IMG/VR virus record: IMGVR_UViG_2721756095_000004
Location: 35,705-99,704 of that record
Strand: one strand, 5' to 3'
DNA length: 64,000 nt
DNA from: a virus
Lineage: Duplodnaviria; Caudoviricetes
The translations under genes and the position numbers were made by a program. The notes under the pieces were generated by a model, which ran no database searches, was not told where the DNA came from, and saw nothing but the letters and a program-made list of their open reading frames with translations. Of this stretch, positions 6,318 to 55,667 are shown piece by piece (the first letter of the stretch is position 1; each line of letters begins with the position of its first letter).

Positions 6318-6467
6318 ATGCTGACATTCTTAGCCGCCCTTCTCGGTATCGCCATGGTCCTTGTCATGACCCCGGCCCTTATCGGCGCGATTCTGAAACA
6401 CAGTGACGCGCTCCCAATTGTCGGGATCATGTTTGCGGCAATAATAATCTTCGGCGTTATCTGGTAG
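6318..6467 (+). CDS. Small two-helix membrane protein (49 aa)
   Basis: Two hydrophobic stretches; upstream TGCTATACT extended -10-like motif; convergent with the large ejection gene. Confidence 0.5.
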   Translation: MLTFLAALLGIAMVLVMTPALIGAILKHSDALPIVGIMFAAIIIFGVIW

Positions 6468-9400
6468 CCTCGACATAGCGCTTATTGAAGTCGGACATTA
6501 GCACCCTTTTCCGCTCCGCCAGTTCTTTCAATTTTTCCCGCTTATCATCCGGATTCGATTTCTCGATCGCGCGTTCACGTTTCCGCATGTTTTCCAGAAT
6601 GTTCGATACGAACTTTGCCCGACCGGAGAGTTTAAGTTCCCCATATTCATCACGCAGCGCAGCCCGCTTTTCTGGATCGCCGCGGAAGTTCTTTAACTCC
6701 TCTTCCGCCAGGTTCACGCTTTTGAGGTTCTGGTAGAACTTGCGCTCAGTCTGGTATTCCGGTTTCGCGCTCAGAAAGATATTAGCGAACGGAACTTCCT
6801 TTGCCTGAATCTCTTCATCCTGGGCGGCTTTTATCGGCAGGCTGAATGCTTGCAGATAAGTGCGCCCAGCGCCGCCGGCAAGCGATGAAACCGCAAAGTC
6901 CAATAGCGCGGGGTTGGTATCTATGAATCCAGGCCGAACCTCATTCCCCCCCGTTGCATCGTTCAGAAACTCAGTCAGCCATTTAGCCGGCGCGCTGGTT
7001 GATTTAAACCCCATTTGATATTCAGGCTTCGGCACACCAAAGGGCGATTGCTCGCGCCTCATCGGATTGCCAGCGAAGTTCTTGTTTTCGCCCCACTGCA
7101 CAAGAGGATCGCCGATGGTCGGCGCAATTAATTGTGTTACTGAACCTGCCTGCCCTACCGGGCTGAACGCATCGAAGAATACGGCTGCGAGCTCAACCGC
7201 GCTATTTGCAGGACTATAGTTCTCCCTGAACATACCCTCGCTCATCTTCCGGCCAACCGAGGCAAAGAAGTTGTAACCGTAAGGCATGGGAACAGTTACC
7301 GGCCTGCTGCCCGCCATAAAGACAAAGTTCATGGCTTTTGTATGTTCGGGCAATTGGTCGTAATCGTTCTCACCATCGTCGTCATCGTCACCCGCCATTG
7401 AACGAGCAAGAATATCCATAAGGAAGCCGGAAGCGACTATGCCGCCCACGATCTTCTGAACTTGCTTATTGCCCAATGCTTGGATGAGCCTTGCCGTGCC
7501 CTGAATGGATGCGTTCATGAACATGTACCACATATTCAGTTCCGTGCTCTTGGCGCCCTTCAGATTAAAGTTAACCGTGAGCCCCTTGGCAACTGAGCTG
7601 CTTTTACCCTCCGATAACCCGCGCTTGCGCGCATTCACGTAAACCGCCAGGCGGATTCCATTCTCGACGGCACTATTCGCGTCTTCGATCAATTCCCACC
7701 AGTCCTTCGCAAGCCGCCGGGTAAAATTCCACTTGCCCGGCCCCATGACCTCAAGTTGATTCCTGAGCTTATCTGCCCGCTCGCCAATGTCCCGGTAGTT
7801 GTCCATCCAGCCAACTTGCCCGCCGGAATCCCTGAATTCCCGGGCATCTTTCGCCCACTGAGAATTCATGTTGCCGCGGGTTAATTGCCACATGCCCCGG
7901 ATAGCCTTTGGCACATCCGCAAATACCTGTCTTTTCATCCCCGCAAGTTCGGTATCTGACAAATTGACATAAGCCGTCTGCAGGTCGCGTAAGAAGTTAC
8001 GAGCAACAAACACCGGGTTTGCCGTGGTATTCATCGTTGCCAGAAAGCGCGTGAATTTACCGACTGCCTGAGTCACTTCCCCGAGTTGCTGAGTGCTCAG
8101 ATTCTTGATGGATGAGGCAAGCCGCATTGCTGCCGGATTCTGTTTATTGAATTCGATGGTATGCTCTTCGCCGTCGATCTTGAACGTCAACACTTCATCG
8201 CGCTGCTTATACAAGGGATCAACACGCTCGACTACAAGTCCTGTTACCGGATCCATTTCGCGCTTGGTATCCTGATCATCCACCTTCCACAGCTCCGGAT
8301 CCGGGTGCGCCATAACGAATTCAAATAAAGCATTGTCCACTCTGGATTTCTCGGCCCGAATAATTGCAGTTTCATGCTGCGCAACCACATGAGCGAGAAT
8401 GTCCGTTACCGCCCTATTCGATCCGGTAGCCCGCTTGCTTTCCTTGCCTCGGATATTAAAGCCCCGGCCTACAGGCGGATTCGTGTTTCCACCAACTTCA
8501 TCGCGATGTAAAGGAACATAGTGATCGTACTTCGCCTCCCATGCGGCGATCATCTCGGGAGTCTCCAAACCGGCATCCACGATCACTTTTCTGGTTGCAG
8601 TAGTTATCTCATCAACCATGGATGAAGCGCGCTGCAGGGCCTCTAATTTGCCCGTTTCCTTGACTTTCTGGATTACTGCTTTTGCCGCGGCGTCACTCAT
8701 TCCAGACAATGCCGTATTGTCGCCATCGAACGGTTTCATATTTTGCAACCGCTTCAATTGCTCAATTGACTGCACGTAATCCTGAACGGCTTTTTTCTTC
8801 CGCAGCTCAGATACTTCTCTATCCAACAGAATCTCGTCGGTGGGATCGACAAGACCATCCTCAACGTCAGATTGCGCCTGTCTCAACTCGCGCCGCTTCT
8901 GGATGAACTCGACAACATTTTTATCCTTGGCCAGCCTGTCACGAGTCGCCGCAAGTTTCTTGATGCGCTCATCCAACTCCTGAACGGTCGGGTTGATGTC
9001 CTTCATGGCCGCATTGCGGGATGGAGCGTGCATCGCGTGCAGGAACTCTTCAACCTCCTCATATTTCAGATTACCGTCATGGATAGCCTGAATAAGCGGA
9101 TCACGCATATCATCATGGAAGTCATCGGTGCGCGCGCGAACACGGCCAGGATAGTTAATCTCAGCAAGCGATGCGTCCATATCCTCATTCACCGGCCCCG
9201 CTTCTTTCTGAATATCCCGAAGATCCATGAACCGATCCTGGAAGTTGAATATCAGAGAGTCAACGATACGGCTGGTTCTGGAGGGGCCGGATGAGGCGTT
9301 ATTGTCGGGCCGGGATGGTTTGCGGCTGAACATCGTTCCGCTCGACGCTTCCCTATAAGCCTCAGCCTGCTTGTCATCAAACAGCGATACCTCGTTCTCC

Positions 9401-12400
9401 GCCATTCCAACAACTTCCGCCCCAGCCACCAACTGTTCAACCATCTCATCAGTAAAGGTGAGATTAAATCTCTCCGCGATCCATTGCTTGATGAAGCGCA
9501 CGAGTTTCTTCCAGCCGTTAAGCGCCTTTGCCCGGTCAATCGACATATCGGCAAGAACTTCCTCGACGGCCGTTTCCTTGGACATGTCTTTGTGCAATCG
9601 CATCATCCGGTCCGCGGCATCGCGTACACGCTTATTCGTCGCGTAGATTTGCCGCATGATCGGATCAATACCGGGACCAAACATCTTCCTAAACCCACGG
9701 TGACGCGCCTCATGCATTGTCACCAGGAAAACCTCGAACGCATCATTCAGTTGGTCGGCGACGAGCCATATTTCGTCTGGGGCAGGAATGTAAACGCCAC
9801 GCACACCCCCTGCATTTTGAGACTTGATCTGCTCCTTAACGGCTTTCGGCAAGTCGCTTTGGGTGGCGGCAATATTGATCTTCTTGAACCCGGCTTGTTG
9901 CAGGGGCTCAATGAGTTTCTCGACGCCGGAAACAGAAAGGCCACCGCGATGGGTGGCCTGTTTGGATTTGGTGGATGCTGCTTTTAGGCGCTTACGGGTT
10001 TCGGCGATTCTTTCACGGTTGAATTTAATGCCTTCATCTGCTATATTAGAATTACTTTGGCCGCGAGCGATGGGGTCGTCCTGACTGGAACTTGCTTCAG
10101 GATTGGCAGCGTATGCGGGCTGTTTTCCAGTGACAGCGAGTGTGGGTTCGCTCCCACTCCAAAGCACCTTCATCCCTTTCTGTAGTTGCTTCTCAAGATA
10201 ATCTCGGCTGGTTGGAAACGCCGTGTTTATCCGGTAATAGTCTCCGTTCTCGCTCGGCTCAAGCTGCACAAACATCACATCTTTCCGGCCATTCTCTACA
10301 GCAACAAGTAGCTGACGGCCGCTAGCATGAAGAATTTCATTGAAGTTCTTCGCTACATGCGCGACAAAAGATTCAACTGATTCAAACCCGGCGTTCCTAA
10401 TCTGTTTTCCATGGTTGGCCTCTATATGCACGAGGCCATGCCCTGAGCCATCAGGCTTGTGTACCCCATGCGCGAGGCGAATGGGCGCGGCCTGGCGCTT
10501 AATCTTGCTCCCCACTTCCTTGTTTATATGACCAAAGTCAATCCCGCCGTCTGGGGTCTCTACAAAATCCGCCGGTTGTGGCGCGCGACTGAATTTTGGC
10601 GCATCAGTAGTTGATTCCTTCGCCTTCACCGCCTCCGCAATCTGCCGCAAAATCTTCGCCGCTTCAGCATCAGCCTTCTCGAACGCCTTGGCTTGCAGGC
10701 TGAAATACCTTCCCTCTACTTTCGCATCCGTGCGCTTGCCTTCCATCACTTCCTTGGCGCGTTCAATTGCTTTGGACAAGTCCTTGCCACCTTGTCTGGC
10801 AGCGGCCCGGCGCTTGATAAGGGATTCTACGTGTGAGCGGACGGGGTGGGCGGCTTGTGTCCCTGCGGATGCGCGCTCAACTACCGAATCCTTTTTGTTT
10901 GGAAGGGTGTTATGTACACGCGATCGCTCAACATTAGCCCAGCCGCCATCTTTATCCTTCGCGACCTTTCGAACGGTCACAGACCAATTGCCATCATTCC
11001 AATCGAACGACTCTACCCGGTCATACGTCCCCCAGTAGTTGCTGCGGATGATACTGCCGGGACGAAAATGCTCCTCCAGTTCGGCGCGCAAACTGGACTT
11101 CTTCGGTTTTGGCGTCTTCTTTGCAGGCTGGACGGCTTGCTTTCCCTCTGCTACGCTTTCATTCCCTGCGGGAGATTTCGCCTCGCGTGACTTGCTTTCG
11201 ATTGAGGGCTTGGGCGCGGGGCGGGTCTCCCTGGCAGGACCAGATTGCGATATGGGATTCGTCGTACCGTTCGTAACTGACTGATCTATATTCGATGTCG
11301 GAATCACGACATCGGCCTGAGTTTTAACTCCCTCGAATTCGGGGGAATTAGCTGCCCGCTCCGCCATCGCCTCTGCAACCGGCCTGACCTCAACAGTTCC
11401 ATTCTCCCCCGCCACAGCAGCCGCAGCCCGTTCAACTCCCGGCCTTCCATCGGTCGCCACGTCCTGAATAACCGTTCCGTTCGCATCCCGCGCAGTGACA
11501 ACCTGATCCGTTTCCGGCTTCTCATCAATCCCATACCCCAGCGCCTCGCCCATGCGATTATCGAGCGCAGCTTGCAGGGTAGCGTCATCGCGATATAGAA
11601 GAGTTCCCCGGCCCGGTATCTCTGCGGCCTGTACGCCTTCCGGTAGAGTGTCAGGCATAGGCTCGCCGGGAGTCAGCAACACGCCAGGCTTACGGCCTTC
11701 AGCAAGCGCGTCCATTTGCGCGTTGAGCGTTTCAATGCGCTCGGGAGTTGGCGCGTCAACCATATTCCCGACGTCAGGAACATGGTCAGGCTCTTCATCG
11801 AAAACATCATCCTGAATCGCATCAGGAGCCGCCTGCTGGCTTTGCCGAATCTCGTCAGCCTTATCCTTGCCCGTAGAAATAATGCGGTCTACGGCCTCAG
11901 AAGTGGACTCAGGGGCGTTCGCAATTTCAGGATCAATGCCTTCCGTTGCCCGGCGGCTCAATTCAGCCTGTGCCGCAGCTTTTGCACGCTCTCCGCCACG
12001 GGCAGCGGTGTATTTCAGGACGGAATTGGAAACTTCTGTTATTGGTTTGCCGAGAATGGTTGCTGTGTGATCAGCATCTTCTTGTGCCGGGTTTCCGCGG
12101 AATACTGCGCCAGTTCCGCCGCCCATTACCCCGCCGCCAATAGCGCCCATGGCGCCGCCGAACAGCGTTTCATCTATATTCTCTGGCGTGGTCGGATTGT
12201 CAAATGCAGCAAGTTGCTCGACTGGATTCTGAACTAGCTCTTCCGTGCCTTCCGCCATCATGCCTTTGCCGATGCCCTTGCCGATCGATCCTTTCAGGGT
12301 AGTGGCCGCAAACTTCTCGGCCAACTTCGCCCTACCCTCTTTCGTCATCGCGGCAAGCGCCCAATTCTGCGGACCAAAGCGGGATTCGATAGCGCCCACG

Positions 12401-13293
12401 GTTGCGGCACCAAGCGCGGCAACAGCCTTCGCTTTCGCGGAATCCTGATTATTCGGATCGCTCAGAATCTGCTTGTCACGAATACCGCCGAAGGAAGGTA
12501 GCGCGGCAATAGCGGCAGGCCCGAGCCATGACACAACCTGCCCGGCGGCGGCAACCAGCGGCGCAGCGGGACCGGCCAATGGGGATAATGCGGTAATGCC
12601 CTGGCCTACTGCTCGGGCTCCAACAATACCGGCCATGGATGAGGCTGCGTTGCCCGAAGCTTCAGCCACGGCGGTACCGGGCTTGTCGGCAATATCATCA
12701 AGGCTATTTACCGCCGTGGGATTGGCGTCGATGATTCCCTGCCCTGCACGTTTAAGAGCATTGTCTTGATCGACTCCGGGGATGAAGTCGGCGGCGACTT
12801 GACCGGCGCCCTTGATGCCGGCGCCAGCGGCGCGCGCAGCCGATGCAACAAATCCGCCTTCCTCTTCCGGTTCTGTGTTGGCCAATGCGCCTGCTACAGC
12901 CTGTTTATTGCCTTGCGCCTTTGTATCATTCGCGGCCGCATTGCGAGTTCGCGCAACAATCCCTGTATCCGGTTCGCTCGATCCTTGCGGCGTTTCGGAA
13001 GCCATCCGATTGTAGAAGTCCCGGCGTACCGGAGCGCCTTTGACTTGAGGCGCGGCAAGTCCAGCGGTTTCAGCAGACCGTTCCTCTGCTTGCTCCGCAA
13101 TACTCTTCTTGGGCGCGAACATGGAGAGGCCGGCGTCGATGGCGCTCGATACAGCAGACTTGCCCTTCACCATCAGCGAAGCGTCAGGATTAAGGTGCGC
13201 TTCATTCTTCTGGATAGCGGCGGCGATGTCCGCATCGGACATATCGGCAGGGAATTCCAGCACGTTACCCCAGGCTTCTACACGTTGAACCAT
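6457..13293 (-). CDS. Large polyvalent ejection/internal virion protein (2278 aa): BECR-like nuclease, HExxH metallopeptidase, LPD38-like C-terminus
   Basis: Last gene of podoviral late operon; Gly/Ala-rich N-terminus; GHGLVHIEANH; MHEARHRG..EEVLA; HYVPLHR, NPVF..RNF.RD, N..YMFMNASIQG, P.PYGY, NKNF.G.P. Confidence 0.8.
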   Translation of the reverse strand: MVQRVEAWGNVLEFPADMSDADIAAAIQKNEAHLNPDASLMVKGKSAVSSAIDAGLSMFAPKKSIAEQAEERSAETAGLAAPQVKGAPVRRDFYNRMASETPQGSSEPDTGIVARTRNAAANDTKAQGNKQAVAGALANTEPEEEGGFVASAARAAGAGIKGAGQVAADFIPGVDQDNALKRAGQGIIDANPTAVNSLDDIADKPGTAVAEASGNAASSMAGIVGARAVGQGITALSPLAGPAAPLVAAAGQVVSWLGPAAIAALPSFGGIRDKQILSDPNNQDSAKAKAVAALGAATVGAIESRFGPQNWALAAMTKEGRAKLAEKFAATTLKGSIGKGIGKGMMAEGTEELVQNPVEQLAAFDNPTTPENIDETLFGGAMGAIGGGVMGGGTGAVFRGNPAQEDADHTATILGKPITEVSNSVLKYTAARGGERAKAAAQAELSRRATEGIDPEIANAPESTSEAVDRIISTGKDKADEIRQSQQAAPDAIQDDVFDEEPDHVPDVGNMVDAPTPERIETLNAQMDALAEGRKPGVLLTPGEPMPDTLPEGVQAAEIPGRGTLLYRDDATLQAALDNRMGEALGYGIDEKPETDQVVTARDANGTVIQDVATDGRPGVERAAAAVAGENGTVEVRPVAEAMAERAANSPEFEGVKTQADVVIPTSNIDQSVTNGTTNPISQSGPARETRPAPKPSIESKSREAKSPAGNESVAEGKQAVQPAKKTPKPKKSSLRAELEEHFRPGSIIRSNYWGTYDRVESFDWNDGNWSVTVRKVAKDKDGGWANVERSRVHNTLPNKKDSVVERASAGTQAAHPVRSHVESLIKRRAAARQGGKDLSKAIERAKEVMEGKRTDAKVEGRYFSLQAKAFEKADAEAAKILRQIAEAVKAKESTTDAPKFSRAPQPADFVETPDGGIDFGHINKEVGSKIKRQAAPIRLAHGVHKPDGSGHGLVHIEANHGKQIRNAGFESVESFVAHVAKNFNEILHASGRQLLVAVENGRKDVMFVQLEPSENGDYYRINTAFPTSRDYLEKQLQKGMKVLWSGSEPTLAVTGKQPAYAANPEASSSQDDPIARGQSNSNIADEGIKFNRERIAETRKRLKAASTKSKQATHRGGLSVSGVEKLIEPLQQAGFKKINIAATQSDLPKAVKEQIKSQNAGGVRGVYIPAPDEIWLVADQLNDAFEVFLVTMHEARHRGFRKMFGPGIDPIMRQIYATNKRVRDAADRMMRLHKDMSKETAVEEVLADMSIDRAKALNGWKKLVRFIKQWIAERFNLTFTDEMVEQLVAGAEVVGMAENEVSLFDDKQAEAYREASSGTMFSRKPSRPDNNASSGPSRTSRIVDSLIFNFQDRFMDLRDIQKEAGPVNEDMDASLAEINYPGRVRARTDDFHDDMRDPLIQAIHDGNLKYEEVEEFLHAMHAPSRNAAMKDINPTVQELDERIKKLAATRDRLAKDKNVVEFIQKRRELRQAQSDVEDGLVDPTDEILLDREVSELRKKKAVQDYVQSIEQLKRLQNMKPFDGDNTALSGMSDAAAKAVIQKVKETGKLEALQRASSMVDEITTATRKVIVDAGLETPEMIAAWEAKYDHYVPLHRDEVGGNTNPPVGRGFNIRGKESKRATGSNRAVTDILAHVVAQHETAIIRAEKSRVDNALFEFVMAHPDPELWKVDDQDTKREMDPVTGLVVERVDPLYKQRDEVLTFKIDGEEHTIEFNKQNPAAMRLASSIKNLSTQQLGEVTQAVGKFTRFLATMNTTANPVFVARNFLRDLQTAYVNLSDTELAGMKRQVFADVPKAIRGMWQLTRGNMNSQWAKDAREFRDSGGQVGWMDNYRDIGERADKLRNQLEVMGPGKWNFTRRLAKDWWELIEDANSAVENGIRLAVYVNARKRGLSEGKSSSVAKGLTVNFNLKGAKSTELNMWYMFMNASIQGTARLIQALGNKQVQKIVGGIVASGFLMDILARSMAGDDDDDGENDYDQLPEHTKAMNFVFMAGSRPVTVPMPYGYNFFASVGRKMSEGMFRENYSPANSAVELAAVFFDAFSPVGQAGSVTQLIAPTIGDPLVQWGENKNFAGNPMRREQSPFGVPKPEYQMGFKSTSAPAKWLTEFLNDATGGNEVRPGFIDTNPALLDFAVSSLAGGAGRTYLQAFSLPIKAAQDEEIQAKEVPFANIFLSAKPEYQTERKFYQNLKSVNLAEEELKNFRGDPEKRAALRDEYGELKLSGRAKFVSNILENMRKRERAIEKSNPDDKREKLKELAERKRVLMSDFNKRYVEATR

Positions 13294-14600
13294 TAATCAA
13301 AACCTCCGGTGCGAGGATTGTATTTTCGGACTGCGCCAGCCTTCGGCGCGGGCGAACCTTGACCTGATTGCGCAAGGAAAGCATCAACATCTTTGGCTGA
13401 TTCTGCGGTAGACATGCCAGCTTTCACATTCGCCTCTATGAGCGACATCCTCCATGCTTCGGATGACTTGTCGCCATTCGTCTTAACTTGCCGCCATCCT
13501 TCTGCCGGGCTGTCAACGATCCCCTTCTCAACAAGATACTCAACCATCTGGGCGTCAGAAGGGAGTTTTCCGCCGCGCCCCCCGAGCGCACCAGAATTAC
13601 GCTCTTCCCTGATGCTCTTCGTCTCTTCGCCCAACTTGCCAACCTGAGCGTTTCTGACTCTCACGCTTGCATCGTTATCACGTACGCTGGAGTCATAATT
13701 CCGAACCTGAGCATCTGACACGCTCCGCTTCCCTTCCGATTCGCTACGGTCCATCTGGTGCTTGAGAAATTTATCGACATCAAGTGTGGTTTGCAGCAGG
13801 TCGCCAATGTCCATAACCTTTTCGCCCGCACCGGAAATATTAATCTTCCACATACGCGGATTATTCGGGTCCGCAGGCGTAGGTCTATCTTCCAGTTTGA
13901 TCCCGCCCTTTGCCAACGAGTCAATGGCCTCGTCCACTTGGCCGCGCATCAGTTGCATACCGCCTTCTATCAATCCTTGTTTCTTTGCTGTGTAGGCGCG
14001 CTCAAGGAACGGCTTGAACCTGTCACCCATGCCGTGCGCTTCAGCAATTGCACTCAACCGGTTCAGCTTGTCCGGGTTGCTGAGAAGATCAGTGCCTAGC
14101 ATTTGCCGGGTTAATTCCTGAGTCATATTCGCCGGATCGATTTCTTGCTGCTGTTGCGGCTGTTGTTGCTGTTGTGGACGCGACGCCTGGGCGAGTCCGC
14201 CAACTTGATAAGCGGCCGCATCGTTACCAGCGAACGCCTCGTCTGGAATCTGCACTACACCGCCTTCCGCAAATCGCTTGAGCGATACGAGTCCGCCCTG
14301 AGCAAAGCCGGGCATGCGCTTGAACCCCGGGTCCATCATTACGGGTTGTTGTGGAGCAGCGGCATTCATGGGCTGACCGCTTCCATCGGTACGAAAGGTC
14401 ATCAATTCTGCACTGGTCGCCTTTTTCCATTCCGCTTCACTGGCAGCCGCTTTATCCCGGTCTGCTTTCTTCCACTCATGTTCTGCGGCGTCACGATCAG
14501 CAAATCCCTGGCGCAAATCCATCAAGCCTTTCTGATTCATAAGGCCGACACCAGAAGTAATCCCTTGTGCCAAACCGCCCGCGAATCCACCTGAAGCCAT
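13293..14600 (-). CDS. Internal virion / DNA ejection protein (435 aa)
   Basis: Middle of three coupled Gly/Gln/Ala-rich genes after the GNAT; MASGGFAGGLAQG start; TAATG coupling on both sides. Confidence 0.7.
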   Translation of the reverse strand: MASGGFAGGLAQGITSGVGLMNQKGLMDLRQGFADRDAAEHEWKKADRDKAAASEAEWKKATSAELMTFRTDGSGQPMNAAAPQQPVMMDPGFKRMPGFAQGGLVSLKRFAEGGVVQIPDEAFAGNDAAAYQVGGLAQASRPQQQQQPQQQQEIDPANMTQELTRQMLGTDLLSNPDKLNRLSAIAEAHGMGDRFKPFLERAYTAKKQGLIEGGMQLMRGQVDEAIDSLAKGGIKLEDRPTPADPNNPRMWKINISGAGEKVMDIGDLLQTTLDVDKFLKHQMDRSESEGKRSVSDAQVRNYDSSVRDNDASVRVRNAQVGKLGEETKSIREERNSGALGGRGGKLPSDAQMVEYLVEKGIVDSPAEGWRQVKTNGDKSSEAWRMSLIEANVKAGMSTAESAKDVDAFLAQSGQGSPAPKAGAVRKYNPRTGGFD

Positions 14601-15775
14601 TACGCACCCCCTTTGTTCAGCATTGCCAGTCCACCTGCATTAATGCGATGAATAAAATCTTCCCCGACCAGATTCACGGCTTCCTCATTCAGCACCGCCT
14701 CGCCGTTTGATAACCTGATGGGCTGCTTGCCCTCGATGCTTGCCGGGATGGAATCGCTCGTACCCGTGCCCGGCCCCGAGATCATCCCGCCTTCCGCATA
14801 ACCCTTACGCTTCAATGAGCCAAGCCCGCCGCTGTACCGCCCCGGCGTCAGCCTGTACGCTGCATTGTGGCGAACCATGCCACCCTTGCGCATAGCCATC
14901 AAAGCCATGCTGCCGCCCATGCCGGCGAGTTGCCCCAAACCAGCAAGTCTTTCTTGATTCGCTTGCCATGACTGAAGTTGAGCATTGTGCTGTCCAAGCA
15001 TGAGATTGCCCCCAGCCGTATTTCCGGACTGCGCCCCGCCGAACCAGTTTTGCGCCGAGTTCATCCCGGCGTTGTGTATCCCGGCGCCGCTCGCCATATT
15101 TCCGGTTGCCGAGTTGCCGGCGTTCAAAGCCGCGGCATCAGCGGCTAATCCAGTGTTCGGCATATTCCGGCCAAAGTTGGCAACACTTTGCCGTTGCGAC
15201 ATTCCGAGTAATTCCGTATCGCGCCGAGCCTTGTTCATTGCTCCCGCAGTATCTTTTGCCTGACCAAGGCTGGCCTCCTTCTGTAGCGCCTGAAATCGGC
15301 CTGAATTGGGATTGACGCCCATGCGTCCCATTGCGCGTTCGTTCTGCTCGCGCGCGCCTTGATAGCCGAGCCCCACGTCGGCGGCAGCTTCAGCCGCCAT
15401 GCGGCTTTTGCGTTCGTCAGAATCGAAGTTATTCGCATCCTGGACCATTTTCTCTTCAACTGGAGCAAAGAGGTCACGGTAGATTTGCCATTGTGATTCG
15501 GCGCGGCCAGCATTCGCATCGCCCGCAGCGATTTGCTGATTGACGATTTTCTCAATGAGAGGATCTTGCTTCGCCGCCCGGTCTTTTTCCCAGGCAAGTT
15601 GCTCTCGGGCAACGGCAGCCTGTTCCTTTCCGAGCTCAACGTTTGATTTAGCGGCCTGGCCAATTGCAGGATCCGGCTCAGGCACGTCAGGTGCGCAGTA
15701 GCAAATATTCGGATTCAGGAACTCGATGTCACGCAGCCTTGCCAATCTACGCTTTCTCATCTCACGCATTTGCAA
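14600..15775 (-). CDS. Internal virion / pilot ejection protein (391 aa)
   Basis: AP..P.PDP.IG, MG.NPNSGRF, Gly/Ala/Asn-rich helices; C-terminal GPGTGTSDSIPA..LSNGE.V. Confidence 0.7.
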   Translation of the reverse strand: MQMREMRKRRLARLRDIEFLNPNICYCAPDVPEPDPAIGQAAKSNVELGKEQAAVAREQLAWEKDRAAKQDPLIEKIVNQQIAAGDANAGRAESQWQIYRDLFAPVEEKMVQDANNFDSDERKSRMAAEAAADVGLGYQGAREQNERAMGRMGVNPNSGRFQALQKEASLGQAKDTAGAMNKARRDTELLGMSQRQSVANFGRNMPNTGLAADAAALNAGNSATGNMASGAGIHNAGMNSAQNWFGGAQSGNTAGGNLMLGQHNAQLQSWQANQERLAGLGQLAGMGGSMALMAMRKGGMVRHNAAYRLTPGRYSGGLGSLKRKGYAEGGMISGPGTGTSDSIPASIEGKQPIRLSNGEAVLNEEAVNLVGEDFIHRINAGGLAMLNKGGA

Positions 15776-50315: not shown

Positions 50316-50816
50316 ATGAAAAAATGGAATGACAGGCTTGATTACGCGCTCAAAGTCCGAAATAAAACACCGGCTGAGTTGGCGCGCGCTACCGGAACAA
50401 AACCGCCTTCTGTAAAGGAATGGTTAGATGGAATAACCAAAAATATTGGCGCTGGGAATGCGGTAAAGGCGTGCGGTTTTTTAAAAATTAATATTGATTG
50501 GCTGCTGCACGGAAAGCTTCCAAGCGGACTAGAAGATTCAAGCAAAGCGGCTGATGTCCAAGTTGTCGAAGAGAGCGAGACGGAGCTTTCCGGCGAGCAA
50601 AAGCAGATACTTTCTCTGATAGCCGGCATCGACAAAGAAACTCGGAGCGCAGTTTTAACGATTCTTTCAAAGCTAATACCAGAGAGGCGAAAGGAAAATA
50701 CCTTGCCCAACGAAGGCCGCAGATTGGGTGAAATTAATTACAGAGATAGCGTGACCAAAGGGCGATTGCTAAACCATGGCCATAAGATCAACGAAAAAAG
50801 GAAGAGAGGGACATGA
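50316..50816 (+). CDS. cI: CI-like repressor (XRE HTH, no S24 peptidase domain)
   Basis: RL..A......AELAR..G.KPPSV..W..G, WLL.G; recognition helix KPPSV shared with Cro. Confidence 0.85.
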   Translation: MKKWNDRLDYALKVRNKTPAELARATGTKPPSVKEWLDGITKNIGAGNAVKACGFLKINIDWLLHGKLPSGLEDSSKAADVQVVEESETELSGEQKQILSLIAGIDKETRSAVLTILSKLIPERRKENTLPNEGRRLGEINYRDSVTKGRLLNHGHKINEKRKRGT

Positions 50817-51146: not shown

Positions 51147-51425
51147 ATGACGAGATTGTTGCTGGTTTTATGTTTATTTATCTTTGCCTCCTCAGTTTTT
51201 TCCGCAAATGAAAGTCTTCACCCTGCTATCGAAGCGCAGCAATCGCATGAGTGCCAAAAGTCGATTAAATCCCACGAATCCAAGGAAGTACTCGCGGGAC
51301 GTGGATGCTGCTCCCATCATAGCGGAGTTTGTGGGTGCTCAGGCGGCAGGGCTACTTGCTGCGATGGATCGCTGAGTCCAACATGTGGATGCCACAAGGA
51401 CGAGCGGACCGGTACTCCTAATTAA
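51147..51425 (+). CDS. Secreted Cys-rich protein
   Basis: Signal peptide ending VFS-A; RGCCSHHSGVCGC......CCDG..SP.CGC. Confidence 0.75.
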   Translation: MTRLLLVLCLFIFASSVFSANESLHPAIEAQQSHECQKSIKSHESKEVLAGRGCCSHHSGVCGCSGGRATCCDGSLSPTCGCHKDERTGTPN

Positions 51426-51432
51426 ACGCTCT

Positions 51433-51783
51433 ATGAAAAACGTATTTCTTCTGATAATTTTGACGACCTTTTTGGTCGGTTGCGCTGGGACAATGCTGCC
51501 CGGCCGCATACACGTTTCCCCTGACGACAAGGTTATGGAATTTAGCATCGAAAAAAGTAGCGGCAGGGGAAAGATGCAGGCGTTCGATAAACAGACTGGG
51601 GAAAAATTCACAGGAAATTACTCCGCCTATTACAGCGGCCAGAACGCACGGGGGGAAGGCATGCTGATAGGAGACAGAGGCAAGAAGATCAAGTTACGCC
51701 TTTTAATAGAGCCAGGAATCAGACCAACGGGACGCGGAACCGGATCGGATGGATCAGGTAAGCGTTATGATATTGTCTTTTGA
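51433..51783 (+). CDS. Lipoprotein, small beta-rich domain
   Basis: MKNVFLLIILTTFLVGC lipobox; GE.F.G.Y, G.G...D..G..Y...F. Confidence 0.8.
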   Translation: MKNVFLLIILTTFLVGCAGTMLPGRIHVSPDDKVMEFSIEKSSGRGKMQAFDKQTGEKFTGNYSAYYSGQNARGEGMLIGDRGKKIKLRLLIEPGIRPTGRGTGSDGSGKRYDIVF

Positions 51784-51796: not shown

Positions 51797-52564
51797 TTGA
51801 AGCGCATTGTTCAATTAGGGCTTTTTATTCTAGCAACCGCCTTTGTTACTCCAACGTGGAGCGGGGGCGGGTTTGCGGGCGGCTTGGCCGAAGGCTTGCA
51901 ACGAGGAATGCAGTTAAATATGCAGCGTCAATTTCTCGAATTGCAACAGCAGCGATCTTCGAAACAGGAGGGCAGCGATGAAGATTGGCTTGAGCAGGTG
52001 CATCAGACCGAAAGCAAGCAGCCGGACGCTAGGGTAAGAATCATGAAGGCAATGGCTACGACTGACCTGCTTGATGATCCCGAAAAACTGTCGAAGATGG
52101 CGGCTATCTCAGCAGATCATGGAATGATGAATGAAGCAATAAAGTTTTCCGAGCTTGCGAGCCAAGCCAAACAACGTGCCCAGGTTGAGGTCATGCAAAA
52201 CCTTATGATGGGCAATGTAGAGCGCGCAATGGATATGGCTAGAAGAGGCGGCACGCCCTTCGCGGACCGTCCTGATAAAGTTCACCCCGCCAATCCGAAC
52301 GATTACCAGTGGCGCGTTCTGTACGAAGGGTCACCAGAAACGGTAATCAACGTGCAGAGTTTGTATGAAACGTACGCACGCACAGCTCCAGTTAAGGATG
52401 TAGCTGGAGTCATGCAGAGCTTTCAGGGTGATCAGGAACGAAATGCTCGCATGGAGCTGATGGAAGAACAAAAACGCGCATTGGAGGAACAACGCAGACG
52501 GGGTTCAACATCGGAACTCAGGGACGCGCTTCTAATAAATGAAATGCTCGCGCCGAGGCATTGA
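51797..52564 (+). CDS. Exported paralogue of the ejection protein at 13293..14600
   Basis: RBS GAGGGGAG plus TTG; 22-aa signal peptide; GGFAGGLA.G and an ungapped 82-aa block with 33 identities (hand alignment) to the virion protein. Confidence 0.85.
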   Translation: MKRIVQLGLFILATAFVTPTWSGGGFAGGLAEGLQRGMQLNMQRQFLELQQQRSSKQEGSDEDWLEQVHQTESKQPDARVRIMKAMATTDLLDDPEKLSKMAAISADHGMMNEAIKFSELASQAKQRAQVEVMQNLMMGNVERAMDMARRGGTPFADRPDKVHPANPNDYQWRVLYEGSPETVINVQSLYETYARTAPVKDVAGVMQSFQGDQERNARMELMEEQKRALEEQRRRGSTSELRDALLINEMLAPRH

Positions 52565-52616: not shown

Positions 52617-52886
52617 GTGAAAACTATCGTCGCCGCCCTTCTCGCCTTTTCCCTGCCCGGCATTGCTCAGGCCCAAGGATGGACAAACCCCTACTCGGAT
52701 ACGGCCGAGCAGTTGGAGACGAAAGAGCGTAAGTTGCGCATGGAGCTCATGGAAAAGCAAAGTAAGGCTCTTGACGAGCAGCGGCGAATGATGCGCAGCC
52801 AGGATCTGAGAAACGACCTGCAATCCCTGGAGATGCTGGGCGATAGGTCTGGAGGTATCAGACCTATTCCGCCTATCGGCTATTAA
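52617..52886 (+). CDS. Secreted helical protein sharing a module with the upstream gene
   Basis: RBS AAGGAG; signal peptide ending AQA; RMELME.Q..AL.EQRR. Confidence 0.8.
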   Translation: MKTIVAALLAFSLPGIAQAQGWTNPYSDTAEQLETKERKLRMELMEKQSKALDEQRRMMRSQDLRNDLQSLEMLGDRSGGIRPIPPIGY

Positions 52887-52903: not shown

Positions 52904-53341
52904 ATGCTCACGGCTCTCTTTTTGGCGACCGTGATAGGCATATCCGACGGAGACACCTTAACGGTCCTGAACGAGAGTAAACAACAGATCAAGATCCGTC
53001 TCGCCGAGATTGATGCCCCCGAGAAGCGGCAGCCTTTTGGTGCGCGTTCCAAACAATCCCTTTCTGATCTATGCTTCGGCAAGAAAGCCCAGGTAATACC
53101 CCAAGCAAAGGATCGATATAAGCGCATAGTCGCGCGCATCAAATGCGATGGGACCGATGCAAACGCAGAGCAAGTTGGTCGGGGCATGGCTTGGGTCTAC
53201 CGCCGCTATGCGAAGGATCACGATCTGTATGTGCTGGAGCATAACGCCAAAGTAGAGAAACGCGGACTATGGTCAGAGCCCTCCCCTATCGCTCCTTGGA
53301 ATTTTCGAGATAACCGTCGAAAGAATGTGCGGACGCTTTGA
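52904..53341 (+). CDS. Thermonuclease (SNase family)
   Basis: V..I.DGDT, IRL..IDAPE..Q..G, DRY.R, V..G.AW.Y, RGLW....PW. Confidence 0.93.
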   Translation: MLTALFLATVIGISDGDTLTVLNESKQQIKIRLAEIDAPEKRQPFGARSKQSLSDLCFGKKAQVIPQAKDRYKRIVARIKCDGTDANAEQVGRGMAWVYRRYAKDHDLYVLEHNAKVEKRGLWSEPSPIAPWNFRDNRRKNVRTL

Positions 53342-54020
53342 ACAGTCGGGAACGCGGAAATATTACGCTCGCCACATTGATCCAGACGCGCCTTCACGAG
53401 AATGGGTTGGAGGCGACACTATTCCTCAATATAACGTCAGCCCAGGGCAAGCGCTTCTAGTCCTCCACATGCTGGATGGCACGCTTCATTCTGACCGTAT
53501 CACCTGGGGCTATAGAACACCGCAAGAGGCAGCAGAAAAGAAAAAACCTTGGATCAACGCCAGGATTGAGAAAGCGCTAACTGGGCGCTATTTTCGCCAC
53601 ATGTTCAGGGAAGGCCGAGTGATTATCCCTGCCGGCGGATGGTATGAGTGGACCGTTGAAAATGGCAAGAAGCAGCCGTGGTACATCACGCGGAACGTGG
53701 ATAAACCAATCTTCATGGCAGGGGTAACGAACTTCCGGCTGTACAGTCAGCAAGCTGTTGAGGTGGGATGCGTCATTGTCACAGAGGATAGTGGCGGCAG
53801 CATGGTGGATATTCATGATCGCAGGCCTGTTGTGCTGGGACCGGATGATGCCTTTCGTTGGATGGACCTTGAAACGCCGGTTGAGGAAGCGGCGCATATA
53901 GCCCAGAGCAGATCCTTGCCAACGGAAGAATTTATGTGGTGGCGTGTGAGTACGCAGGTGAACCGGGCCGATCCTGCGAATAATGGACGGCATTTGCTCG
54001 AGCCAGCGCCTCTTAGTTAA
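53325..54020 (+). CDS. SRAP (YedK/HMCES) abasic-site protein
   Basis: MCGRF, YN..P, NAR.E, G.YEW, IHDR.P. Confidence 0.93.
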   Translation: MCGRFEQSGTRKYYARHIDPDAPSREWVGGDTIPQYNVSPGQALLVLHMLDGTLHSDRITWGYRTPQEAAEKKKPWINARIEKALTGRYFRHMFREGRVIIPAGGWYEWTVENGKKQPWYITRNVDKPIFMAGVTNFRLYSQQAVEVGCVIVTEDSGGSMVDIHDRRPVVLGPDDAFRWMDLETPVEEAAHIAQSRSLPTEEFMWWRVSTQVNRADPANNGRHLLEPAPLS

Positions 54021-54663
54021 CGTCCCAGACATCAAAATCAACAGATTTTGGTACTCTTCGCGCAATAAAAAGCCCCAGCGTTTGTACATGCGGCATCTCT
54101 GCATGAATTACTTTTTGGACTGCCTTGAAATGCGAGCCCGTTGTTAACACATCATCAATTATTAGCGCGACAGTCGGTATTGGATTAACAATACTTTGAT
54201 CAATCCGGTAATTTTCAGCTAACTCATCTGGCGGCGGCCGGCCGGTAGTTTGGTCGTGCGAGGGTGATTTCGATTCAAGCTGTATGACAAGCTCGCGGAT
54301 GTCGCTTTTGTAGCCAGCGCACATACTCTGGAGCATACGAAGCAGACGGTCATCGTATAAGGGATCTGTTTTCTTCTTGGACGGGGGGATGGGGACGAAG
54401 GTAACTGATTCAAAAGCGTTCGGTGACAATGCGGCTCTAAAGATTTGGGCCGCCTTAGCTATGGCCTGTTCCTTGTAACGCCACTCGGGACGCCCTTTCC
54501 TGTCAACTTCTTTCTTAAAATTGATTATGAGTTGATTTGTTTCGCTATAGGCAAACCCTTCCCCGGCTGTGTATTCGCCATGGAAATAACATTTGTCCCC
54601 GGGCAGTAAATAGTGATGGTCACGACGGATTAAATCATCGACCTCGATAATTCTCTTATTCAA
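54013..54663 (-). CDS. ComF-like phosphoribosyltransferase (ShosT-like toxin candidate)
   Basis: VPIPPS, IIDDVLTTGS PRPP-binding loop; overlaps DprA-like gene. Confidence 0.85.
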   Translation of the reverse strand: MNKRIIEVDDLIRRDHHYLLPGDKCYFHGEYTAGEGFAYSETNQLIINFKKEVDRKGRPEWRYKEQAIAKAAQIFRAALSPNAFESVTFVPIPPSKKKTDPLYDDRLLRMLQSMCAGYKSDIRELVIQLESKSPSHDQTTGRPPPDELAENYRIDQSIVNPIPTVALIIDDVLTTGSHFKAVQKVIHAEMPHVQTLGLFIARRVPKSVDFDVWDVN

Positions 54664-55540
54664 GCGCCCCTGCTATATCATCGTAAGATCGGACCCTAAT
54701 AGCTCCGATTTTTTCAAATCTTTCAGGCCATGAGAGATTTGGATTTTGGAAGCAGCTATCCAATATGAATAGCTTGCGCCCTTGTTTCAGGGCCGCTCGC
54801 GCTTGAGTAAGAGTTCCGGATGTCTCCCCCGCTTCAATAATAATTGTAGCGTCCGTTAAGGCGGACATCGTGATATTCCTCTCTGGAAAAAACAAACGAT
54901 TTCCGCGATAGGTTTGCTGCGAGTAGCGCAATATCGGGACCTGGCTTATCAGCAAGTAGTTCTCTGCGATATGCTCTTGAAGGTCAACGTTCTCTGCGGG
55001 GTATGACTCTGTGACGGGCGTGCCAATGACAGCGACAGTCTTGCCACCGGAATCTATCGCTGCTTTATGCGCCGCAGAGTCAACTCCCTTGGCCAAACCA
55101 GAAACGACGGTGAAGCCATCTCGAATCAATAGCTTTACGATTTTCTTCGTCCTGCGTAAACCCTCTTCACTCGGGTTTCTCGTCCCGACAACGGCTACCG
55201 ATTTCTTTGAGTTGACCAAGTCCCACCAACCGCGAAAGTAAAAGAACTCGATCGGATTCGCTGCATCTCGTAGCTTAAGTGGGTATTCCTCGGATCCGTG
55301 TACACGAATACCTAAATCTTTTATTCCCGCTTTCTCAATAACCCTTAGTACCTTCGGAAGAACGTCTTCGATCTCATGCTCGGTTACCAATTCAGAAGGC
55401 ACTAGATCGGGGTTATCTCGAAAGCATTGCGCCAGGGTCTTGAAGGAAGAATTTTCGTGCGCCCAGAGCGCCTCGTAGCCCCCCATTTCGCGAATTGGCG
55501 ATATAGGTGGTTTATTTAGGATGTGCTTTAGGTCAGTCAT
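54656..55540 (-). CDS. DprA/Smf-like protein (ShosA-like antitoxin candidate)
   Basis: YP..L, AVVGTR, VSGLA.GVD..AH, FP.RN..MS, EA...SGT..QA. Confidence 0.9.
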   Translation of the reverse strand: MTDLKHILNKPPISPIREMGGYEALWAHENSSFKTLAQCFRDNPDLVPSELVTEHEIEDVLPKVLRVIEKAGIKDLGIRVHGSEEYPLKLRDAANPIEFFYFRGWWDLVNSKKSVAVVGTRNPSEEGLRRTKKIVKLLIRDGFTVVSGLAKGVDSAAHKAAIDSGGKTVAVIGTPVTESYPAENVDLQEHIAENYLLISQVPILRYSQQTYRGNRLFFPERNITMSALTDATIIIEAGETSGTLTQARAALKQGRKLFILDSCFQNPNLSWPERFEKIGAIRVRSYDDIAGALE

Positions 55541-55667
55541 GTCTCTCACAATTATATCCCTTAACAGCCTCATCCCCTAACTGGTTTACCTTCTAGCTTA
55601 GAGGCCCAGACTTTCCCTGGCCCGCCCAACCCCCTCTAATCATCATGGGGCTATTGTATCAAAATAA

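What the first reader, a model, noticed from the sequence alone, without database searches (positions are those of the whole stretch)
51797..52564. Signal-peptide-bearing copy of the phage's own ejection protein: candidate decoy superinfection-exclusion system
Seen: after a 22-aa signal peptide (MKRIVQLGLFILATAFVTPTWS) the protein begins GGGFAGGLAEGLQRGMQL, mirroring the N-terminus MASGGFAGGLAQGITSGVGL of the virion protein at 13293..14600. It then aligns without gaps over 82 aa with 33 identities by hand count (52052-52297 vs 13857-14102; TDLLDDPEKLSKMAAISADHGM vs TDLLSNPDKLNRLSAIAEAHGM, GG....DRP....P.NP), and similarity continues through W.....G..E.V.....L..T. The internal low-complexity segment is dropped and the C-terminus replaced. 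The gene lies about 37 kb from the late copy, in the cI cassette. Known: podoviral ejection proteins oligomerise into a conduit across the periplasm. Inference: the lysogen exports a truncated mimic that poisons conduit assembly by related phages; divergence with an intact frame implies selection. I know of no described exclusion system built from a re-targeted ejection protein, but I could not search the literature. The parent's ejection role is inferred from position and composition.
Basis: partly seen in the sequence, partly recalled or inferred. Interest (0 to 1): 0.93.

Follow-up and report, generated by a model that had tools for sequence, protein, structure and literature searches.

The report
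Exported paralogue of a phage virion protein
A prophage of a nitrifying bacterium encodes, beside its repressor and a known anti-phage system, an exported, shortened relative of a protein carried in the phage particle, and this probably blocks DNA entry by rival phages, though that is untested.

Summary
The 255-aa protein (51797-52564) is a true paralogue of the prophage's 435-aa virion-type protein: BLASTP E 2e-19, and 33 of 82 ungapped identities against at most 20 in 300 shuffles. It has a Sec-type leader. The mature end starts with the same GxxxGxxxGxxxG glycine zipper that the virion protein carries at residue 3.

It is not a recent copy of this phage's own gene. On a 63-row tree, 11 exported relatives plus one fragment form one old clade (support 99). 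The own 435-aa gene sits deep in another clade.

Exported members are modular: tip only, central domain only, or both. Only two genomic contexts could be read, and both are mobile and defence-rich. One is this repressor-side operon next to ShosTA. The other is a P4-like island with Zorya I.

The parent is distantly related to JC1 gp68, which mass spectrometry found in virions. Its ejection role is inferred.

Best reading (0.45): a periplasmic entry-interference factor.

Earlier notes of this scan report similar exported mimics on other DNA. I did not check those notes.

The parts
51797..52564 (+). Gene for the 255-aa exported paralogue (TTG start)
   Evidence: ORF. GGGGAG box 7 nt upstream. 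BLASTP against the 435-aa protein gives E 2e-19. Three non-self relatives in the 5.8-billion-protein set, 41-60% identical.
51797..51862 (+). Predicted Sec signal peptide, residues 1-22, with the cut after T-W-S
   Evidence: Heuristic n/h/c-region scan. All 19 proteins I classed as exported show the same three-part pattern. No SignalP run and no experiment.
51863..51976 (+). N module: glycine zipper (G25, G29, G33, G37) followed by a Gln-rich helix, residues 23-60
   Evidence: G25 F26 G29 G33 G37 are invariant in alignment A1. Matches residues 4-31 of the 435-aa protein, 14/28, E 5e-6. AF2 predicts a helix at 28-59.
52040..52384 (+). M domain, residues 82-196: helical repeat plus beta-hairpin, the part shared with virion proteins
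   Evidence: pLDDT 90-97. A domain HMM hits 77 of 89 collected proteins. 12 of the 17 columns conserved at 80% or more in virion-type proteins keep the same residue in the exported clade.
52430..52561 (+). C module, residues 212-255: a long helix found only in the exported clade
   Evidence: The module HMM hits only exported-type proteins and fragments (10 proteins). AF2 predicts a helix at 202-251.
52617..52886 (+). Neighbouring 89-aa exported protein made of a leader plus a C-module copy
   Evidence: 20/38 identities to the end of the 255-aa protein. tblastn E 2.5e-6.
13293..14600 (-). 435-aa virion-type paralogue, placed just upstream of the giant polyvalent protein gene
   Evidence: Gene order matches GP4, JC1 and SopranoGao. 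hhalign of its family against JC1 gp68 gives probability 81.5%, E 1.1e-5. JC1 gp68 was found in virions by mass spectrometry (PMC9144972, passages).
14541..14594 (-). N-terminal glycine zipper of the virion protein, residues 3-20
   Evidence: In 31 virion-type proteins the motif begins at residue 2-10. AF2 predicts a helix at 9-69.
13782..14114 (-). M domain of the virion protein, residues 163-273
   Evidence: Domain HMM E 3.6e-20. pLDDT 86-97.
50316..50816 (+). cI-like HTH repressor gene, first gene of the + strand block
   Evidence: ORF; the HTH was read by eye and Pfam gave no hit. It faces a cro-like gene (50045-50248, -), which has an 11/12 sigma-70-like promoter at 50279-50250.
51147..51425 (+). 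Small Cys-rich protein with a leader, same block
   Evidence: ORF. The leader was read by eye. No family hit.
51433..51783 (+). Predicted lipoprotein (leader ending LVGC), same block
   Evidence: ORF and sequence. The lipobox was read by eye. No family hit.
52904..53341 (+). Staphylococcal-nuclease-like gene with a hydrophobic N-terminus, same block
   Evidence: Pfam SNase E 1.1e-22. Export was not established.
53325..54020 (+). SRAP gene, last gene of the block; the first + strand terminator-like hairpin lies at 54087-54105
   Evidence: Pfam SRAP E 5.5e-45. Terminator scan.
54013..55573 (-). ShosTA anti-phage pair, convergent with the block
   Evidence: PADLOC ShosT E 2.4e-46 and ShosA E 2.8e-101.
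14600..15775 (-). 391-aa virion structural protein upstream of the 435-aa gene
   Evidence: phrog_8003 E 3.3e-89.
6457..13293 (-). 2278-aa polyvalent protein, in the position where related phages hold the DarB-like gene
   Evidence: Pfam LPD38 E 5.8e-42. Gene order as in GP4, JC1 and SopranoGao.

Best explanation
The 255-aa protein is most likely an entry-interference (superinfection-exclusion) factor that works in the periplasm.

Proposed steps, all inferred:
1. In the lysogen the gene is transcribed with the repressor.
2. The protein is exported by Sec and the leader is cut off. The mature protein then starts with the same glycine-zipper tip that the virion protein has at its own start.
3. 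Behind the tip come a helix, the same folded central (M) domain and a second long helix. The disordered linker and the small C-terminal domain of the virion protein are missing.
4. Waiting in the periplasm, it takes the place of the incoming virion protein on whatever that protein must bind there. The partner could be a host envelope component, a membrane site or another ejected protein. DNA of related podoviruses then fails to reach the cytoplasm.

I favour saturation of a conserved partner over co-assembly into a poisoned oligomer. The exported clade has its own strongly conserved surface motif, and its tips are more polar than the virion tips.

Shown here: the homology, the shared architecture, the conserved leader, the single old origin of the exported clade, and the mobile, defence-rich neighbourhoods. 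Inferred: expression, export, the partner, and any effect on phages.
For: 1. Homology. BLASTP E 2e-19 plus the N-terminal match E 5e-6. 33/82 identities against a shuffle maximum of 20.

2. Same architecture in the AF2 models. The 255-aa protein has a helix at 28-59, the M domain at 78-196 and a helix at 202-251. The 435-aa protein has a helix at 9-69, a disordered stretch, the M domain at 156-273 and a helix at 275-336.

3. Position of the tip. The motif starts at residue 2-10 in 31 of 31 virion-type proteins. It starts at residue 18-36, right behind the leader, in 12 of 12 exported proteins that have it. A tip needed at a free N-terminus in the periplasm argues that the virion tip also acts in the envelope.

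4. Polarity. Exported tips are more polar: mean hydropathy -0.11 against 0.49, and 1.83 against 0.94 charged residues per 18.

5. Selection. There are 19 leader-bearing relatives among the proteins collected. They form one clade, support 99. The clade has 36 columns conserved at 80% or more, and 12 of these are shared with the virion group.

6. Context, 2 of the 2 that could be read. Here the gene lies in the repressor-side block with no + terminator before 54087, next to ShosTA. In G141 it lies on an island with a P4-type integrase and a DUF3631 primase, about 4 kb from ZorA, ZorB and ZorC.

7. The parent is a virion protein by relationship. Its family matches JC1 gp68 (hhalign probability 81.5%), which was detected in CsCl-purified virions with 9 peptides (PMC9144972). 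The 255-aa model's best viral fold match (E 5.1e-4) is a 383-aa SopranoGao protein. This is most likely gp07, which lies just upstream of the DarB-like gene.

8. Precedents. Exclusion at DNA entry can act on ejection proteins (P22 SieA, PMC10883804, abstract). An exported entry protein can saturate a host co-receptor (Ff pIII and TolA, PMC7070036, passages).
Against: - There is no evidence of expression, export or any phage phenotype.
- Only two genomic contexts could be read. The contigs of the other members were out of reach, so the link to defence genes rests on n = 2.
- The central domain is only 31% identical on average to long virion-type proteins and 24% to short ones. That is low for a mimic that must fit the same partner.
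- The exported clade does not track the co-resident virion genes, so there is no sign of co-evolution.
- The parent's role in DNA ejection is not shown. It could instead be an internal head protein that helps load the giant polyvalent protein. In that case the periplasmic relative would need another explanation.
- No known defence model matches (PADLOC, 0 families).
- None of 53 cultured relatives has a second copy.
Confidence: 0.45

Rival explanations
1. Dominant-negative poisoning. The exported protein zips through its glycine zipper or M domain into the oligomer formed by incoming virion proteins and yields a dead-end conduit.
For: The glycine zipper G-x3-G-x3-G-x3-G is invariant in the exported proteins that carry it. 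It sits at the mature end exactly as in virion proteins. Both proteins have long flanking helices suited to oligomers. Exported proteins with the tip alone exist: P0059, P0075, P0078 and P0079.
Against: Six exported members lack the tip entirely and keep only the M domain (P0031-P0036). The central domain is only 20-43% identical to long virion-type proteins. There is no co-variation with resident virion genes.
Confidence: 0.15
2. A lysogenic-conversion envelope protein with no role against phages. In this reading a periplasmic helical-repeat protein, once borrowed from a virion gene, now changes envelope properties of the host.
For: The block holds several other small exported proteins of unknown family: a Cys-rich protein, a lipoprotein and the 89-aa protein. 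Weak fold matches of the M domain are to TPR-like periplasmic regulators such as NlpI and LpoP (probability 0.16-0.33). The exported clade is strongly conserved on its own terms. No defence model matches.
Against: It would be a coincidence that the mature end reproduces the virion tip in 12 of 12 cases. It would also be a coincidence that both readable contexts are mobile elements beside known defence systems. The family was found only in one genus and its mobile DNA: 29 of 42 genus genomes, and 0 of 400 other genomes sampled from the order.
Confidence: 0.22
3. It is made for the element's own lytic cycle. It acts by the same competition, but late in infection. It would stop progeny from wasting their DNA on already infected cells or on envelope debris. 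My recalled comparison is the phage T5 lipoprotein Llp.
For: The mechanism would use the same homology and export features. Timing of expression is unknown.
Against: The gene is on the repressor's strand, opposite to the early-right and late genes. One member sits on an island without virion genes.
Confidence: 0.1
4. A decaying remnant of a duplicated virion gene without function.
For: One family member, P0035, ends in unrelated sequence after the M domain. A degenerate fragment with a stop codon was seen in G167.
Against: The frame is intact and the leader is conserved. 36 columns are conserved at 80% or more across a clade whose members are on average only 51% identical. The AF2 model of the M domain is confident.
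Confidence: 0.03

Closest known systems
Ff (f1/M13) pIII superinfection immunity (PMC7070036, passages seen; it cites Boeke 1982 and Riechmann and Holliger 1997)
   Same: A virus entry protein with a leader is made in the resident cell. It is exported and blocks later infection by occupying what the incoming particle's copy must bind in the periplasm (TolA).
   Different: In Ff the same gene serves in the virion and in immunity, and the phage is filamentous. Here it is a separate, shortened, long-diverged paralogue in a tailed-phage immunity region and on a satellite-like island. The partner is unknown and nothing has been tested.
Phage P22 SieA (Leavitt et al. 2024, PMC10883804; abstract and outline seen)
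   Same: It is prophage-expressed and blocks DNA injection of related podoviruses. It acts on the conduit made of ejection proteins, and escape mutations lie in gp16 and gp20.
   Different: [quoted passage not shown] The 255-aa protein has a cleavable leader, no further hydrophobic segment, and is itself a relative of a virion protein. PHROGs gave no family for it.
HXS system, periplasmic effector HxsA (PMC13128918; abstract and outline seen)
   Same: A processed periplasmic protein arrests phage DNA entry.
   Different: HxsA is a host defence effector matured by radical-SAM enzymes. It has a peptidoglycan-binding domain and is thought to bind DNA. No such genes or repeats are present here.
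Virion structural protein encoded just upstream of the DarB-like gene in Bcep22/GP4/Lastavirus-type podoviruses (JC1 gp68, GP4 gp69, SopranoGao gp07)
   Same: The N-terminal glycine-rich tip is shared. The central domain is shared (hhalign probability 81.5%; Foldseek E 5.1e-4). The 435-aa protein also shares the gene position.
   Different: Those proteins have no leader, are 383-510 aa long and are part of the particle. The 255-aa protein has a leader, lacks the linker and the C-terminal domain, and lies 37 kb away in the immunity region.
Phage P1 Sim, and lipoproteins Ltp (TP-J34) and Llp (T5). All are recalled; none was seen in a call.
   Same: They are exported or lipid-anchored prophage proteins that block entry after adsorption.
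   Different: As far as I recall, none is reported to be a relative of the phage's own virion proteins. This was not checked here.

Membership tests
Virion protein family of the gene upstream of the DarB-like gene (435-aa type; distant members JC1 gp68, GP4 gp69) | Central M domain | tested here: met
   BLASTP E 2e-19. Domain HMM E 1.5e-64 for the 255-aa protein and 3.6e-20 for the 435-aa protein. 12 of 17 virion-conserved columns are kept.
Virion protein family of the gene upstream of the DarB-like gene (435-aa type; distant members JC1 gp68, GP4 gp69) | Glycine-zipper tip at the very N-terminus (residue 2-10) | tested here: inconclusive
   In the 255-aa protein the tip starts at residue 23, behind a predicted leader. 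It would be N-terminal only after cleavage, which is not shown.
Virion protein family of the gene upstream of the DarB-like gene (435-aa type; distant members JC1 gp68, GP4 gp69) | Gene placed between the phrog_8003 virion protein gene and the giant polyvalent gene | tested here: not met
   The 255-aa gene lies in the repressor-side block, 37 kb away. The 435-aa gene meets this feature.
Virion protein family of the gene upstream of the DarB-like gene (435-aa type; distant members JC1 gp68, GP4 gp69) | Presence in the virion | not testable with these tools
   Known only for the distant relative JC1 gp68 (PMC9144972, Table 6 passage).
Sec (type I) signal peptide | Basic n-region, hydrophobic h-region, small residues at -3 and -1 | tested here: met
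   My own heuristic scan. The 255-aa protein has K2 and R3, a core at 7-21 and T-W-S before G23. All 19 exported-type relatives fit the pattern. No SignalP and no experiment.
P22 SieA-type exclusion proteins | Inner-membrane protein with sequence similarity to SieA types | tested here: not met
   PHROGs, 0 families. No hydrophobic segment beyond the leader. AF2 shows a soluble helical protein.
Known anti-phage defence systems (PADLOC 2.0) | Match to any model | tested here: not met
   0 families for the 255-aa, 89-aa, lipoprotein and Cys-rich proteins, and 0 for the G141 homologue.
Ff pIII-type immunity | Exported entry protein binds the host co-receptor in the periplasm | not testable with these tools
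Spanin or other lysis protein | Position in the lysis cassette; lipobox or membrane anchor | tested here: not met
   A spanin-like overlapping pair lies at 39285-39939 on the other strand (read by eye). The 255-aa protein has no Cys after the leader.

The most novel reading that the evidence does not exclude
Exported, shortened paralogues of ejection proteins may be a general and undescribed class of phage exclusion factor. They would be modular (tip only, central domain only, or both). Each module would jam one contact that the incoming DNA-entry machine must make in the periplasm. They would travel as cargo between prophages and satellites, alongside systems such as ShosTA and Zorya.

As a by-product, the family would identify the virion protein upstream of the DarB-like gene in Bcep22/GP4-type podoviruses as the envelope-acting ejection protein. 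Its free glycine-zipper N-terminus would work like a fusion peptide.
Probability: 0.3. Interest if true: 0.85.

Novelty: new variant of a known kind. Interest (0 to 1): 0.7.

Why it matters
Blocks at the DNA-entry step are among the least understood phage defences. The few known cases (SieA, Sim, Imm, Ltp, HXS) are unrelated proteins that were each found by genetics.

If exported relatives of virion proteins exclude phages, such factors could be predicted from sequence alone: look for leader-bearing paralogues of ejection genes. The target would then be known in advance, which makes the mechanism directly testable.

It would also give a first functional handle on the conserved but uncharacterised virion protein next to the giant DarB-like protein in a widespread podovirus group. 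And it would show that tailed phages use the receptor-interference logic known from filamentous phages and retroviruses.

Tried and rejected
No family or defence-model match:
- tblastn of the 255-aa and 435-aa proteins against 50,697 phage records found nothing.
- Pfam, PHROGs and PADLOC gave no family for the 255-aa protein.

Contexts of other family members could not be read:
- The search for related loci found no confirmed locus. Alignments A1 and A2 went to genome contigs, viral contigs and metagenome contigs. P0004 went to metagenome contigs (37). P0033, P0004 and P0034 went to viral contigs (103-105). P0035 went to genome contigs (106).
- The contexts of P0002-P0004 and P0031-P0036 therefore stay unknown.

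Expression and binding could not be examined:
- The look-up of sequencing runs listed no RNA holder.

Fold and structure searches were uninformative:
- Foldseek against the PDB gave no match at E 0.001 or better, only weak TPR-like rows.
- The VIA wide search was filled by the long C-terminal helix (residues 199-255) and barely tested the M domain.
- A profile search of PDB sequences gave nothing below E 0.04.
- The Atlas search gave only scores of 0.86 or lower. These included a 0.81 row for PF16928 ejection proteins, which is a lead only.

Other leads dropped:
- A hit to the leader plus tip in G167 proved to be a degenerate fragment with a stop codon next to an amoC-like gene (read by eye). 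I dropped it.
- A lysis or spanin role was rejected on position and the lack of a lipobox.
- 'Recent duplicate of the own gene' was rejected by the tree.

Literature:
- Searches were read as listings and abstracts. A term search of the review PMC11436027 found 'decoy', 'ejection' and 'tape measure' 0 times each.
- None of these showed an exported paralogue of a tailed-phage ejection protein described as an exclusion factor. This is not proof that none is in print. Subscription journals are mostly missing, and supplements were closed and never asked for.

Rows dropped before the tree: hits covering fewer than 88 of the 114 domain positions, and P0005 and P0011. Those two are start-truncated gene calls of this genome's own two long copies. 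I replaced them with the full ORFs.

E-values are for a set of only 89 proteins.
Full report
WHAT IS THERE

The window holds a podovirus-type prophage running from about 6.4 kb to beyond 64 kb. On the minus strand it has:
- a terminase large subunit gene (36467-37750), a portal gene (34170-36197) and a major head protein gene (30023-31294);
- an internal virion protein gene (20633-22672);
- an acetyltransferase gene (15762-16373);
- a phrog_8003 virion structural protein gene (14600-15775, E 3.3e-89);
- the 435-aa gene (13293-14600);
- a 2278-aa polyvalent protein gene with an LPD38 domain (6457-13293).

The same order (internal virion protein, acetyltransferase, virion protein, a further virion protein, then the DarB-like giant) is annotated in Ralstonia phage GP4, Burkholderia phage JC1 and Klebsiella phage SopranoGao.

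On the other side, a cro-like gene (50045-50248, minus strand) has an 11/12 sigma-70-like promoter. It faces a cI-like gene (50316-50816, plus strand). Eight plus-strand genes follow the cI-like gene, with no terminator-like site before 54087:
- an 85-aa ORF;
- a Cys-rich protein with a leader;
- a lipoprotein;
- the 255-aa protein;
- an 89-aa protein with a leader;
- an SNase-like nuclease;
- an SRAP protein.

Convergent with this block lies a ShosTA pair (ShosT E 2.4e-46, ShosA E 2.8e-101). Further right are YqaJ and RecT genes and an integrase gene. The layout mirrors the lambda immunity region, with the exported cluster where rexAB sits. That comparison is from my own knowledge.

BLASTP of the 255-aa protein against the 435-aa protein gives 35% identity over 111 residues, E 2e-19. 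A second segment at the tips gives 14/28, E 5e-6. The hand count of 33 of 82 identities without gaps is exact, and 300 shuffles gave at most 20.

The TTG start has a GGGGAG box 7 nt upstream. The first 22 residues look like a Sec leader (my own heuristic). The residues that follow reproduce the G-x3-G-x3-G-x3-G glycine zipper found at residues 5-17 of the 435-aa protein.

The two AF2 models show the same layout.
- 255-aa protein (mean pLDDT 80.9, central domain 90-97): tip, helix 28-59, short linker, M domain 78-196 (helical repeat plus beta-hairpin), helix 202-251.
- 435-aa protein (mean pLDDT 75.8): tip, helix 9-69, disordered 70-155, M domain 156-273, helix 275-336, then a small helical domain at 349-411.

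The exported protein is therefore a compact version that keeps tip, helix, domain and helix. It loses the disordered linker and the last domain. Its last helix has no significant sequence match in the virion protein.

A FAMILY, NOT A ONE-OFF

The word-indexed search found three non-self relatives of the 255-aa protein, 41-60% identical and all with leaders. An exhaustive profile search of 1.84 billion representatives gave 64 proteins at E 0.001 or better. They fall into two kinds.
- Virion-type: 240-656 aa, no leader, glycine tip at residue 2-10.
- Exported-type: 84-278 aa, with a leader. I count 19.

The exported kind is modular:
- leader + tip + M + C module: the window protein, P0002 and P0004. 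P0003 has the same plan with a truncated C module, and P0029 has tip and M but no C-module hit;
- leader + M, with or without C and without the tip: P0031-P0036;
- leader + tip only, or tip plus another tail: P0055, P0057, P0059, P0075, P0078, P0079, P0082. The weaker of these, at E 1e-4 to 1e-5, may owe part of their score to Gln-rich composition;
- leader + C only: the window's own 89-aa neighbour.

The C module occurs in 10 proteins of the exported kind and in no virion-type protein. It is therefore an old part of that lineage, not a local graft in this window.

ORIGIN

A maximum-likelihood tree of the M domain (63 rows, 113 columns, quick search) puts all 11 exported proteins with an M domain, plus the N-terminally truncated P0030, on one side of a branch. 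That branch has SH-aLRT support 99 and length 0.68.

The prophage's own 435-aa protein is nested deep among long virion-type proteins, 90% identical to P0006 in this domain. The window's exported protein is 35% identical to its own phage's domain but up to 42% identical to other virion-type domains.

The distant relatives in cultured phages are all leaderless virion proteins. The simplest history is therefore one ancient recruitment of a virion gene to export, followed by spread as mobile cargo. It is not a copy of this phage's own gene, and there is no sign of co-phylogeny.

After recruitment the clade fixed its own signature. It has 36 columns conserved at 80% or more, including a PFADRP..K..P..PND..W stretch. 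The virion group has 17 such columns, although mean divergence is similar (51% against 48% pairwise identity). Of the 17 virion-conserved columns, 12 keep the same residue in the exported clade.

WHERE THE FAMILY LIVES

In 190 genomes of the family, 31 have a match. In the own genus, 29 of 42 genomes do. Nearly all of these matches are virion-type.

Judged by matches that include the leader, only G000 and G141 carry an exported member with an M domain. A third leader match, in G167, is a degenerate fragment.

None of 400 other genomes sampled across the order matched at E 1e-5 or better. None of 53 cultured GP4/Bcep22-like phage records holds a second copy of the corresponding gene. Source names on family members are Nitrosospira.

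In G141 the exported homologue (278 aa) follows another small exported protein. Both lie on an island with a P4-type integrase, an AlpA-like gene (read by eye) and a DUF3631 primase. About 4 kb downstream are ZorA, ZorB and ZorC of a type I Zorya system. No virion gene is nearby.

So both readable contexts are mobile elements beside known defence systems. That is n = 2 and no more.

WHAT THE PARENT IS

The 435-aa family matches JC1 gp68 over the M domain (hhalign probability 81.5%, E 1.1e-5, 106 columns). JC1 gp68 and GP4 gp69 start with a related glycine tip and occupy the same position.

JC1 gp68 was detected in CsCl-purified virions with 9 unique peptides (PMC9144972, passages and Table 6).

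The best viral fold match of the 255-aa model is a 383-aa SopranoGao protein (E 5.1e-4, probability 0.99). By length and organism this is most likely gp07, the virion structural protein just upstream of the DarB-like gene.

Virion association of the parent is thus supported through relatives. A role in the trans-envelope conduit is not shown. One indirect argument favours an envelope role. Exported relatives keep the tip exactly at their mature N-terminus (12 of 12), and that makes sense only if the tip acts in the periplasm or at a membrane.

MECHANISM

I think the protein waits in the periplasm and competes with the incoming virion protein for a partner.

Exported tips are more polar than virion tips (hydropathy -0.11 against 0.49). 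That fits a soluble mimic rather than a membrane-inserting one.

Tip-only and domain-only exported forms suggest that each module blocks a separate contact.

The strongly conserved, clade-specific surface and the lack of tracking of resident virion genes make me favour saturation of a conserved partner. This is how Ff pIII saturates TolA (PMC7070036). I rank co-assembly into a poisoned oligomer lower and keep it as a rival.

The neighbouring SNase-like gene has a hydrophobic N-terminus. If it is exported, it could destroy DNA released into the periplasm. That is speculation.

P22 SieA shows that exclusion can act through ejection proteins (PMC10883804, abstract). HXS shows a periplasmic block to DNA entry (PMC13128918, abstract).

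From recall only: N-terminal glycine zippers drive channel formation in VacA, and deletion mutants of that region are dominant-negative.

WEAKNESSES

- There is no evidence of transcription, export or phenotype.
- Only two contexts could be read.
- Identity to virion domains is low.
- The parent might be a head-internal helper of the giant protein rather than a conduit part.
- A non-defence envelope role cannot be excluded.

NOVELTY

The principle that a resident copy of an entry protein blocks entry is known from filamentous phages and, from recall, from retroviral Env. Entry-step exclusion by prophages is also known.

I did not find a dedicated, exported, long-diverged paralogue of a tailed-phage virion protein, forming its own modular family and travelling with defence systems, described in searches or in the review PMC11436027.

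Earlier AI notes of this scan report similar exported or membrane mimics of ejection-protein pieces in other phages. I did not check them, and they are not independent evidence. If they hold, this case has the longest homology reported among them and a family tree.

I rate it a new variant of a known kind, with interest 0.7.

Noticed in passing
G000:C2:350284-370000 (outside the window; part held as L040): The same genome holds a second, related podoviral prophage: terminase 83%, portal 82%, head protein 86% and internal virion protein 78% identical. Its counterpart of the 435-aa gene is a short 249-aa form, only 26% identical, and no giant polyvalent gene follows it. This short form makes up most of the matches found in 29 of 42 genomes of the genus, so the element is either a very common prophage or a domesticated one.
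   Followed up: partly
G000:C2:614636-617971 (outside the window; L041): A third virion-type copy (422 aa, 57% identical to the 435-aa protein) lies next to a gene with an LPD38-like region. No head genes related to the window's prophage were found there by tblastn.
   Followed up: partly
window 54013-55573: A ShosTA anti-phage pair (ShosT 216 aa, ShosA 305 aa with a DprA-like domain) is convergent with the repressor-side block and overlaps the end of the SRAP gene by 8 bases.
   Followed up: yes
window 1-5858: Baseplate genes of a Mu/P2-like myovirus (gp44-like hub, Baseplate_J, tail fibre) and a Dam-type methylase directly abut the podoviral prophage. Two prophages therefore sit side by side.
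   Followed up: no
window 13293-14600: The public gene call for this protein (P0005, 415 aa) starts at an internal Met and cuts off the glycine-zipper tip. The tip is conserved at the start of over 30 relatives. The ATG at 14600 overlaps the stop of the upstream gene by one base and is the likelier start.
   Followed up: yes
L039 (G141:C14:173000-192900), 2032-19339: An integrative island has a P4-type integrase, an AlpA-like gene, a DUF3631 primase, three small exported proteins and a type I Zorya system (ZorA E 2.3e-250, ZorB, ZorC). It looks like a satellite-type carrier of defence cargo.
   Followed up: partly
window 52904-53341: The SNase-like nuclease in the same block starts with a hydrophobic stretch and has no basic residue before it. 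It may be exported, which would place a nuclease in the periplasm beside the putative entry blocker.
   Followed up: no
window 44236-45058: Two open frames of 271 and 272 codons overlap almost fully on the minus strand. Only the ORF list was seen.
   Followed up: no
window 52617-52886 and L039 9291-9617: The small exported proteins next to the two exported paralogues both carry NPY-type motifs: one in the 89-aa protein, and several tandem NNPYG-like repeats in the 108-aa G141 protein. Related SPY/NPY motifs lie between the M and C modules of P0029, P0033, P0034 and P0036.
   Followed up: no
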